From UHGV virus genome UHGV-0232082: 14,288 bases of DNA; one strand, 5' to 3'. The notes below the pieces were generated by a model that was given only the letters and a program-made list of their open reading frames with translations, ran no database searches and was not told where the DNA came from. Source of the stretch: a virus. Positions 10,820-11,224 of this stretch are shown here, in pieces (position 1 is the stretch's first letter; every line of letters starts with the position of its first letter). The translations under genes and the position numbers were made by a program.

Positions 10820-11224
10820 ATGAATGATGTTTATGCAGTTGTTGATAATAACGTTGTTATTGATGTCATTATCTGGGACGGAATTTCTGAATGGAAACCA
10901 GAGGCTGGTAATTTAGTTCCGTTAAACGGCGATGCTGGCATCGGTTGGTCATATTCAGACGGAGTATTTACCGCGCCACCTCCCCCAGAACGCTCTCACA
11001 ACGCGTTAGTTGCGGAGGCTGAGCTGCAGAAATCAGCACTACTGACCGTAGCAAATAACGCAATAGCACCGCTGCAGGATGCCGTTGATTTGGAAATGGC
11101 GACAGACGATGAACAGACGTTACTGCTGGCGTGGAAAAAATACAGGGTACTGCTGAACCGTGTTGATACCTCAGCGGCACCCGAAATAGAGTGGCCTACG
11201 CAACCGGGGGAGCGGGCCAGTTGA
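10820..11224 (+). CDS. Tail fiber assembly protein (Tfa / Mu gpU-like chaperone)
   Basis: 134-aa ORF starting at the tail fiber stop (TAAATG). C-terminus carries the motif pattern characteristic of Tfa proteins ([33 protein letters not shown]). AT-richer than the upstream tail genes. Confidence 0.8.

What the first reader, a model, noticed from the sequence alone, without database searches (positions are those of the whole stretch)
11196..11224. Convergent tail fiber assembly genes sharing their last 29 bp
The + strand tfa ends at 11224 and the minus-strand Tfa fragment ends at 11196, so both C-termini are encoded in the same 29 bp on opposite strands. Each strand encodes its own W-P motif a few codons before its stop (EWPTQP on +, NWPAPP on -). 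This is the U/U' junction of an inversion cassette preserved at nucleotide resolution, and a useful breakpoint marker.
Basis: seen in the sequence. Interest (0 to 1): 0.45.

Follow-up and report, generated by a model that had tools for sequence, protein, structure and literature searches.

The report
Remnant of tail-fibre inversion cassette
Two tail-fibre chaperone reading frames do share 29 bases on opposite strands, but this is the common, already annotated centre of an e14-type invertible tail-fibre cassette, and this E. coli prophage keeps only one working half plus a dead 41-codon stump.

Summary
The + strand tfa gene (10820-11224) and a minus-strand Tfa C-terminal fragment (11196-11321) overlap by exactly 29 bp.

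The junction aligns without gaps to the tfaP/tfaE junction of E. coli K-12 prophage e14, which has the same 29-bp overlap. Shigella phage SfIV (gp21/gp22) has it too, and e14-type junction DNA is found in about 2170 of 5426 complete E. coli genomes. It does not match the Mu or P1 U/U' junction, where a 28-bp spacer holds a bidirectional terminator.

RefSeq already annotates both features in an identical genome (strain GF60).

The cassette is defunct:
- only one crossover site remains (10171-10191);
- there is no invertase gene and no alternative fibre gene;
- the stump has no usable start codon.

All 25 other copies examined (the GF60 copy plus 24 viral contigs) carry the same stump. It abuts a 42-codon tailspike stub and a gtrCBA module that matches a P22-like prophage.

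The 29 bp are not a breakpoint. The real joints lie at about 11321 and 11352.

One side result may be new. Covarying hairpins lie inside each tfa 3' coding end, just downstream of the partner's stop. They may replace the intergenic terminator.

Verdict: already known, low interest.

The parts
9887..10819 (+). Tail-fibre gene (310 aa). The N-terminal constant part resembles StfP; the variable C-terminal part is glycine-rich.
   Evidence: 82% identity to K-12 StfP over 124 aligned aa; the match is near-identical up to about residue 102 and decays beyond it. Pfam Gly_rich_2 covers residues 114-307, E = 8.5e-18.
10171..10191 (+). The single surviving crossover (pix-like) site, at the constant/variable boundary of the fibre gene.
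   Evidence: 20 of 21 bases match the e14 left inverted repeat. It is the only match on either strand at up to 3 mismatches, with 0 expected by chance.
10820..11224 (+). Intact tail fibre assembly (chaperone) gene tfa, 134 aa.
   Evidence: Caudo_TAP E = 1e-32. 38% identical to TfaP over the C-terminal 78 aa. PGAP calls it 'tail fiber assembly protein'.
11196..11224 (.). The 29 bp read on both strands: the last 9 sense codons plus stop of tfa, and the last 9 sense codons plus stop of the stump.
   Evidence: Same length and register as e14 tfaP/tfaE and SfIV gp21/gp22. Invariant in 17 haplotypes.
11196..11321 (-). Stump of the second, convergent tfa: the last 41 codons only. A pseudogene.
   Evidence: 68% identical to TfaE residues 160-200. 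The longest ORF with a start codon in this frame is 20 aa. The same stump is present in all 25 other copies, that is GF60 plus 24 viral contigs. PGAP marks it 'incomplete; missing N-terminus'.
11224..11269 (+). 19-bp hairpin on the tfa-sense RNA, starting at the last base of the tfa stop codon and lying inside the stump.
   Evidence: Free energy -26.9 kcal/mol, z = -5.4, 0 of 200 shuffles as stable. The other strand is weaker (-16.3, z = -2.4). The homologous helix covaries across 93 distinct sequences.
11135..11182 (-). Terminator-like stem followed by UGUAUUUUUU on the minus strand, just downstream of the stump's stop and inside the tfa coding sequence (codons for WKKYRVLL...SAAP).
   Evidence: Free energy -19.3 kcal/mol, z = -2.45. 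The same layout is seen in all 18 distinct class-B tfa ends that sit in 29-bp junctions. A terminator function is inferred, not shown.
11352..11480 (+). Stub of a P22-like tailspike gene: last 42 codons plus stop.
   Evidence: 81% aa identity to residues 547-588 of the 588-aa tailspike of strain PSS-11. DNA 11397-11530 is 98.5% identical to that tailspike-gtrC joint.
11486..11522 (.). Strong hairpin between the tailspike stub and the gtrC stop.
   Evidence: 16-nt arms, 94% complementary. Free energy -24.4 kcal/mol, z = -6.6.
11526..14288 (-). O-antigen glucosylation module gtrC (11526-13013), gtrB (13000-13929) and gtrA (13926-14288), convergent with the tail genes.
   Evidence: Pfam Glucos_trans_II for gtrC. 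PGAP annotates a glucosyltransferase domain protein, a GT2 family protein and a GtrA family protein, followed by chromosomal ybhB-bioA.

Best explanation
The 29-bp overlap is the inherited centre of an e14-type (Pin-family) invertible tail-fibre cassette. In such cassettes two alternative gene sets, each a variable fibre part plus its tfa chaperone, face each other, and the two tfa genes end in the same 29 bp. Inversion between two crossover sites by a serine invertase puts one set or the other behind the constant 5' part of the fibre gene.

In this E. coli prophage (Mu/SfV-like tail, gtrABC at the right end, next to ybhB-bioA) only one set is left: the constant fibre part, one crossover site, a glycine-rich variable part and tfa. 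Of the opposite set only the last 41 codons of tfa' survive. The rest of tfa', the alternative fibre segment, the second crossover site and the invertase have been replaced by a tailspike-stub/gtrCBA block that matches a P22-like prophage.

The locus therefore cannot invert, and the minus-strand frame makes no protein. The 29 shared bases persist because they encode the C-terminal tail of the working Tfa. The adjoining 97 bases are a passenger, possibly retained because they hold a 3' hairpin for the tail-operon transcript.

Shown: homology, register, absence of the other parts, and fixation of the stump. Inferred: the order of events and any role for the hairpin.
For: - Gap-free alignment to e14 tfaP/tfaE with the same 29-bp overlap; 21 of the 29 bases are identical.
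- SfIV, a sequenced phage with the same tail-gene order, has gp21/gp22 overlapping by 29 bp, with an IS element and gtr genes after gp22.
- 74 of 80 viral loci encoding TfaE relatives carry a convergent partner, always with a 29-bp overlap. Overall 116 of 120 pairs overlap by 29 bp.
- The junction occurs in Escherichia, Kluyvera, Citrobacter, Morganella and Rosenbergiella. e14-type junction DNA is in 2170 of 5426 complete E. coli genomes.
- The fibre N-terminus is StfP-like (near-identical up to about residue 102), and the crossover site is retained at 10171-10191.
- There is no second site. No invertase is annotated within 12 kb on either side in GF60.
- The stump has no start codon that gives more than 20 aa. 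All 25 other copies carry the same stump.
- Nucleotide diversity of the stump outside the overlap is 0.019, against 0.0077 in tfa, with no third-position bias.
- The tailspike stub and gtrC match a P22-like prophage.
Against: - No relative was found with an intact cassette that carries this particular tfa/stump sequence type, so the ancestral state is inferred from e14, SfIV and other genera rather than observed.
- The diversity comparison rests on only 5 variable sites in 97 bp.
- The invertase was looked for only in the window and in 12-kb flanks of one genome.
Confidence: 0.85

Rival explanations
1. The stump is kept because it is functional non-coding DNA. The hairpin at 11224-11269, directly after the tfa stop, would act as the 3' end structure (an exonuclease barrier or terminator stem) of the late tail-operon mRNA. 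More generally, in e14-type junctions each tfa 3' coding end would encode, on its antisense strand, the terminator or hairpin for the convergent partner. That would replace the intergenic bidirectional terminator of Mu and P1.
For: - The hairpin has z = -5.4 on the + RNA and is much weaker on the other strand. The same holds at the same place in e14 and SfIV (z = -4.7).
- For the 12-bp helix in 93 distinct sequences, 83% of cells are paired against 29-50% in the slid controls. The covariation score is 0.288 against 0.05-0.14, and 0 of 500 shuffles reach it.
- The changes include synonymous-synonymous compensations such as Ala GCA with Ser AGT versus Ala GCG with Ser AGC.
- G-U pairs outnumber A-C mismatches by 157 to 39 on the antisense strand.
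- The hairpin is stronger in 29-bp junctions (-21.0 kcal/mol, n = 90) than in other contexts (-13.1, n = 19).
- Class-B ends in 29-bp junctions all show an antisense stem followed by a U-rich run, UAUUUUUU in 12 of the 18.
- The Mu and P1 spacer holds a true bidirectional terminator.
Against: - No U-tract follows the class-A hairpin, and the simple terminator scan found nothing here.
- The statistics are not corrected for relatedness, and two lineages (TfaE-like and TfaP-like) dominate the alignment.
- Two variable sites in the window-type copies (11237, 11239) weaken the inner stem and are not compensated.
- The window's own minus-strand stem is only marginal (z = -2.45).
- No transcript data were available.
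Confidence: 0.3
2. The locus is still an active host-range switch. The region between the crossover site in the fibre gene and a second site would be inverted by an invertase supplied in trans (PinE, PinQ or PinR of other prophages).
For: - Pin-family invertases act in trans on the e14 P segment (PMC12529663, read).
- One good crossover site is present.
Against: - No second site on either strand at up to 3 mismatches.
- No alternative fibre segment to switch to, and tfa' is cut down to 41 codons.
- Every copy examined has the same orientation and the same stump.
Confidence: 0.03
3. The minus-strand frame is a chance open frame or an assembly artefact, with no real relation to Tfa.
For: None beyond its short length.
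Against: - Pfam Caudo_TAP E = 4.5e-10.
- 68% identity to the TfaE C-terminus.
- Identical in 67 complete genomes and 24 viral contigs.
Confidence: 0.01

Closest known systems
P segment of cryptic prophage e14, E. coli K-12 (stfP-tfaP / tfaE-stfE, pinE)
   Same: - tfaP (1208132..1208545, +) and tfaE (1208517..1209119, -) overlap by the same 29 bp.
- The alignment to the window is gap-free, with the motif TGGCC-N18-GGCCA and both stop codons in the same places.
- The fibre N-terminus is StfP-like (near-identical up to about residue 102), and the crossover site differs at 1 of 21 bases.
   Different: - e14 has both crossover sites with 1797 bp between them, a full tfaE, stfE and pinE.
- The window has one site, a 41-codon stump and no invertase.
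- 8 of the 29 shared bases differ, so the tail sequences differ: TQPGERAS and APPVA here, against TPPAVQAR and ELPEA in e14.
- The variable fibre part here is a glycine-rich domain unrelated to StfP.
Shigella phage SfIV gp21/gp22 (serotype-converting phage with a Mu-like tail)
   Same: - Same order of tail and baseplate genes.
- tfa gp21 (17570..18085) and the convergent tfa gp22 (18057..18581) overlap by 29 bp.
- gtr genes lie downstream, convergent with the tail genes.
   Different: - In SfIV the second tfa is still 174 aa long and is followed by ISEhe3. Here it is cut to 41 codons and followed by a tailspike stub.
- The SfIV paper treats ORF-22 as an extra Tfa, not as an inversion relic (PMC3851460).
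U/U' junction of the G segment of phage Mu and the C segment of phage P1
   Same: Two convergent tail fibre assembly genes at the centre of an invertible segment, with the same overall cassette logic.
   Different: - There is no overlap. A 28-bp spacer between the stops holds a classical bidirectional intrinsic terminator, AAGGCCCG-AUAG-CGGGCCUU.
- The Mu U and U' tails (..PEWPQKPE, ..VTFPEQPE) end sooner after the WP (FP in U') motif than the window tfa tail does.

Membership tests
Functional Pin/Gin/Cin-type invertible tail-fibre cassette | Two crossover sites in inverted orientation flanking the segment | tested here: not met
   One site at 10171-10191. No other match on either strand at up to 3 mismatches. 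e14 has two.
Functional Pin/Gin/Cin-type invertible tail-fibre cassette | Adjacent serine invertase gene | tested here: not met
   None among the ORFs of the window. None annotated within 12 kb on either side in the identical GF60 locus.
Functional Pin/Gin/Cin-type invertible tail-fibre cassette | Two alternative variable fibre segments, each with its own complete tfa, in opposite orientation | tested here: not met
   One complete set. Of the other set only 41 codons of tfa' remain, and no stf'.
Functional Pin/Gin/Cin-type invertible tail-fibre cassette | Constant 5' part of the fibre gene outside the segment, joined to the variable part at the crossover site | tested here: met
   Near-identical to StfP up to about residue 102 (82% over the 124 aligned aa), with similarity lost just after the site.
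e14-type convergent tfa junction (29-bp overlap) | Both stops and both WP codons in the register TGGCC-N18-GGCCA, with a gap-free alignment to tfaP/tfaE | tested here: met
Mu/P1-type U/U' junction | Non-overlapping stops separated by a 28-bp spacer with a bidirectional intrinsic terminator | tested here: not met
   The window has an overlap and no spacer.
Tail fibre assembly protein, Pfam Caudo_TAP (PF02413) | Full-length match above the gathering score (+ gene) | tested here: met
   113.4 bits against a cutoff of 22.1, covering profile positions 41-130 of 131.
Tail fibre assembly protein, Pfam Caudo_TAP (PF02413) | Complete domain with a start codon (minus-strand frame) | tested here: not met
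   Only profile positions 95-130 are present. The longest ORF with a start codon is 20 aa.
Rfam IS009 (RF02111) candidate sRNA | Score at or above the family's gathering threshold (117 bits) | tested here: not met
   48.8 bits at 10987-11175, + strand. The model consensus reads as tfa coding sequence.

The most novel reading that the evidence does not exclude
In e14-type cassettes the two convergent tfa genes overlap because the usual intergenic bidirectional terminator (present in Mu and P1) has been replaced by RNA structures embedded in the coding sequences.

The antisense of each tfa 3' end would supply the hairpin for the partner's transcript. For class-B ends that hairpin is followed by a U-tract made from the Lys-Lys codons of the conserved WKKYRVLL motif.

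The covarying, strand-asymmetric hairpin at 11224-11269 would then be the reason why exactly this stump of the dead tfa' is fixed in every copy of this prophage's fibre module.
Probability: 0.3. Interest if true: 0.4.

Novelty: already known. Interest (0 to 1): 0.15.

Why it matters
There is little new in the finding as stated. The overlap is part of the reference annotation of E. coli K-12 (tfaP/tfaE), of phage SfIV, and of this very locus in RefSeq.

It has some practical use. It identifies this prophage's fibre module as a decayed, fixed-orientation descendant of an invertible host-range switch. It also shows that the true recombination joints are next to the overlap, not in it.

The only part that could add knowledge is the side observation that terminator-like, covarying hairpins are embedded in the conserved Tfa C-terminal coding region. 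If real, this would be a neat example of dual use of coding sequence. It could also explain why short tfa stumps persist beside working tfa genes.

Tried and rejected
- Megablast of 10700-11600 against the phage collection found nothing. Only the distant mode found SfIV and others.
- A search for a second crossover site in the window, using inverted-repeat search and a pattern with 3 mismatches, found none.
- The simple promoter/terminator scan gave no terminator at the junction. The hairpins found later have loops or tails outside that scan's rules.
- Folding 121-nt stretches across the junction gave unremarkable z-scores of -1.7 and -0.8. Only the local 56-nt folds were significant.
- I looked for an intact cassette carrying the window-type tfa in 80 viral loci and 77 E. 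coli genomes. There was none, and every copy has the same stump.
- I first mis-indexed the sequence ruler and put the minus-strand stop at 11197.
- I considered that the wobble positions of the two frames might coincide. They do not: position 3 faces position 2.
- The literature search found no paper that discusses the 29-bp overlap itself.
- The class-B hairpin was not put through a formal covariation count, because indels make the alignment unreliable.

Full report
**Observation**

The + strand ORF 10820-11224 encodes a 134-aa protein ending ...[13 protein letters not shown]. The minus-strand frame that ends with TAG at 11198-11196 reads ...[41 protein letters not shown].

Both are Tfa sequences. 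The + protein matches Pfam Caudo_TAP at E = 1e-32. The minus fragment matches the last 36 positions of the same profile at E = 4.5e-10. It is 68% identical to residues 160-200 of K-12 TfaE.

In the overlap, codon position 3 of each strand faces position 2 of the other (read from the coordinates).

The longest ORF with a start codon in the minus frame is 20 aa, so this frame is a stump and not a gene.

**Where the window comes from**

The window is 100% identical to the chromosome of E. coli GF60. In 67 complete E. coli genomes the query region 10700-11600 is matched over at least 80% of its length, at 95% identity or more.

It is the right end of a prophage with a Mu/SfV-like contractile tail. 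The gene order is sheath, tube, tape measure, baseplate, ymfQ, fibre, tfa, then gtrC-gtrB-gtrA on the other strand, then chromosomal ybhB-bioA.

PGAP already annotates the tfa gene and, overlapping it by 29 bp, a pseudogene described as 'tail fiber assembly protein, incomplete, missing N-terminus' at the position of 11196-11321. An assembly error is therefore excluded, and the feature is not new to the databases.

**Comparison with known cassettes**

- *e14 of K-12.* tfaP (1208132-1208545, +) and tfaE (1208517-1209119, -) overlap by 29 bp. The window aligns to this junction without a single gap. Both WP codons (TGGCC-N18-GGCCA) and both stops are in register, and 21 of the 29 shared bases are identical.
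- *Shigella phage SfIV.* It has the same tail-gene order. gp21 (17570-18085) and gp22 (18057-18581, minus strand) also overlap by 29 bp, and an IS element and gtr genes follow.
- *Mu and P1.* Mu U ends at 33502 and U' at 33531. P1 U' ends at 34318 and U at 34347. Each has a 28-bp spacer, which folds into a classical bidirectional terminator.

**How general the 29-bp overlap is**

- Of 80 viral contigs encoding close TfaE relatives, 74 have a convergent Tfa partner with varied N-terminal parts. The overlap is always 29 bp.
- Over all loci fetched up to that point, 116 of 120 convergent Tfa-tail pairs overlap by 29 bp. The other four, which include Mu, have gaps of 25-110 bp.
- A pattern scan of one genome per species found the junction in Escherichia, Kluyvera, Citrobacter, Rosenbergiella and Morganella. 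In Morganella an earlier stop shortens the overlap to 17 bp.
- e14-type junction DNA is present in 2170 of 5426 complete E. coli genomes.

This is a common, inherited architecture.

**State of the cassette in the window**

- The fibre gene 9887-10819 is near-identical to StfP up to about residue 102 (82% over the 124 aligned residues) and then switches to a glycine-rich domain.
- The switch point carries the e14 crossover repeat with one mismatch, at 10171-10191.
- No second copy exists on either strand at up to 3 mismatches.
- No invertase lies in the window or within 12 kb on either side in GF60.
- There is no alternative fibre segment.
- All 25 other copies of the window-type junction (GF60 and 24 viral contigs) carry the same 41-codon stump with the same break. 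This includes one copy with a different tfa N-terminal part (L109) and one on a different baseplate backbone (strain FDAARGOS_1288).

The truncation is therefore old and fixed, and the locus cannot invert.

**What lies beside the stump**

- Window 11352-11480 (+) encodes the last 42 residues of a P22-like tailspike (81% identity).
- 11397-11530 is 98.5% identical to the tailspike-gtrC joint of a P22-like prophage in strain PSS-11.
- A strong hairpin (11486-11522, z = -6.6) separates the stub from the gtrC stop.
- Different copies join different gtrC alleles at 11429, 11467 or 11478.

The real breakpoints are therefore about 11321/11322, about 11352, and these right-hand joints. The 29-bp overlap itself is invariant in 17 haplotypes. 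Nucleotide diversity is 0.0077 in tfa and 0.019 in the stump outside the overlap, and the stump shows no third-position bias. That is consistent with no protein-level constraint on the stump, although there are only 5 variable sites.

**Side result: hairpins**

A 19-bp hairpin (11224-11269) starts at the last base of the tfa stop. Its free energy is -26.9 kcal/mol with z = -5.4 on the + RNA, against -16.3 kcal/mol and z = -2.4 on the other strand. e14 and SfIV have a hairpin of different sequence at the same place (z = -4.7).

I collected 93 distinct 48-mers of this Tfa C-terminal coding region (class A, the LDY[LI].. type) and tested a 12-bp helix:

- 83% of cells are paired, against 29-50% when the partner columns are slid.
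- The covariation score is 0.288, against 0.05-0.14 in the slid controls.
- 0 of 500 shuffles reach the observed values.
- Some compensations are synonymous on both sides, for example Ala GCA with Ser AGT versus Ala GCG with Ser AGC.
- G-U pairs outnumber A-C mismatches 157 to 39 on the strand that the convergent partner would transcribe.
- The hairpin is stronger in 29-bp junctions than in other contexts: -21.0 against -13.1 kcal/mol.

The other class of Tfa ends (WKKYRVLL..., which includes the window's own tfa) gives, on its antisense strand, a stem followed by a U-rich run. That run is UAUUUUUU in 12 of the 18 distinct class-B ends found in 29-bp junctions. In the window this element lies at 11182-11135 on the minus strand, with z = -2.45.

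Together with the true terminator in the Mu/P1 spacer, this suggests that e14-type junctions moved the terminators into the coding ends. This is inference:

- the statistics are not corrected for relatedness;
- two lineages dominate the alignment;
- the class-A hairpin has no U-tract;
- I have no transcript data.

**Other checks**

Rfam gives one sub-threshold match: IS009, 48.8 bits against a gathering score of 117, at 10987-11175. The consensus of that model is plainly tfa coding sequence.

A 2025 paper shows that the e14 P segment is inverted in trans by PinQ, PinR and PinE, with the same 16-bp core repeat (PMC12529663). That is background for the cassette logic. It does not rescue activity here, because a second site is lacking.

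**Verdict**

The cassette is a fossil, and the overlap is not a breakpoint. The feature is already known and annotated, so interest is low. The embedded-hairpin idea is the only reading with some novelty, and it needs transcript mapping.

Noticed in passing
window 11352-11480 (+), 11486-11522, 11526-14288 (-): A 42-codon stub of a P22-like tailspike gene and its downstream hairpin travel with the gtrCBA module. This suggests that the O-antigen modification block was swapped in from a podovirus-type prophage into this myovirus-type prophage.
   Followed up: partly
window 11224-11269 (+); alignment A4: A covarying hairpin inside the Tfa C-terminal coding region, directly after the stop of the convergent partner. 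It is more stable on the partner's transcript strand.
   Followed up: partly
window 11135-11182 (-); L172, L175, L258: The antisense of the conserved WKKYRVLL...(S/T)xAP codons of class-B tfa genes forms a stem followed by UAUUUUUU, the layout of an intrinsic terminator. It is present in all 18 distinct class-B ends found in 29-bp junctions.
   Followed up: partly
window 10987-11175 (+): A sub-threshold match to Rfam IS009 (48.8 bits, gathering score 117). The model consensus translates as Tfa sequence (..[11 protein letters not shown]..), so this candidate sRNA family appears to be built on tfa coding DNA.
   Followed up: partly
window 9887-10819 (L001 11188-12120): PGAP splits the fibre gene into a 'stfP, incomplete' pseudogene and a separate 'glycine-rich domain-containing protein' CDS. 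In the sequence, however, 9887-10819 is one uninterrupted 310-codon ORF.
   Followed up: no
L165 (E. coli FDAARGOS_1288), L085-L106: The block made of the glycine-rich fibre part, tfa, the stump and about 150 bp occurs on a different baseplate backbone and with different gtrC alleles, joined at window positions 11429, 11467 or 11478. It behaves as a mobile module.
   Followed up: partly
L041 positions 2599-2627 and 4575-4603: One viral contig carries two 29-bp tfa/tfa junctions about 2 kb apart. This may be a multi-segment (Min/shufflon-like) inversion region.
   Followed up: no
L174 (314-bp contig in an Alkalicoccobacillus porphyridii assembly): An exact e14-type junction sits on a tiny, low-coverage contig of a Bacillota assembly. 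This is most likely E. coli contamination.
   Followed up: no
window 11548-11519 (-): A promoter-like site matching 11 of 12 consensus positions (TTGACA-18-TATTAT) at the 3' end of gtrC, pointing towards the tail genes. It may be chance in AT-rich DNA.
   Followed up: no
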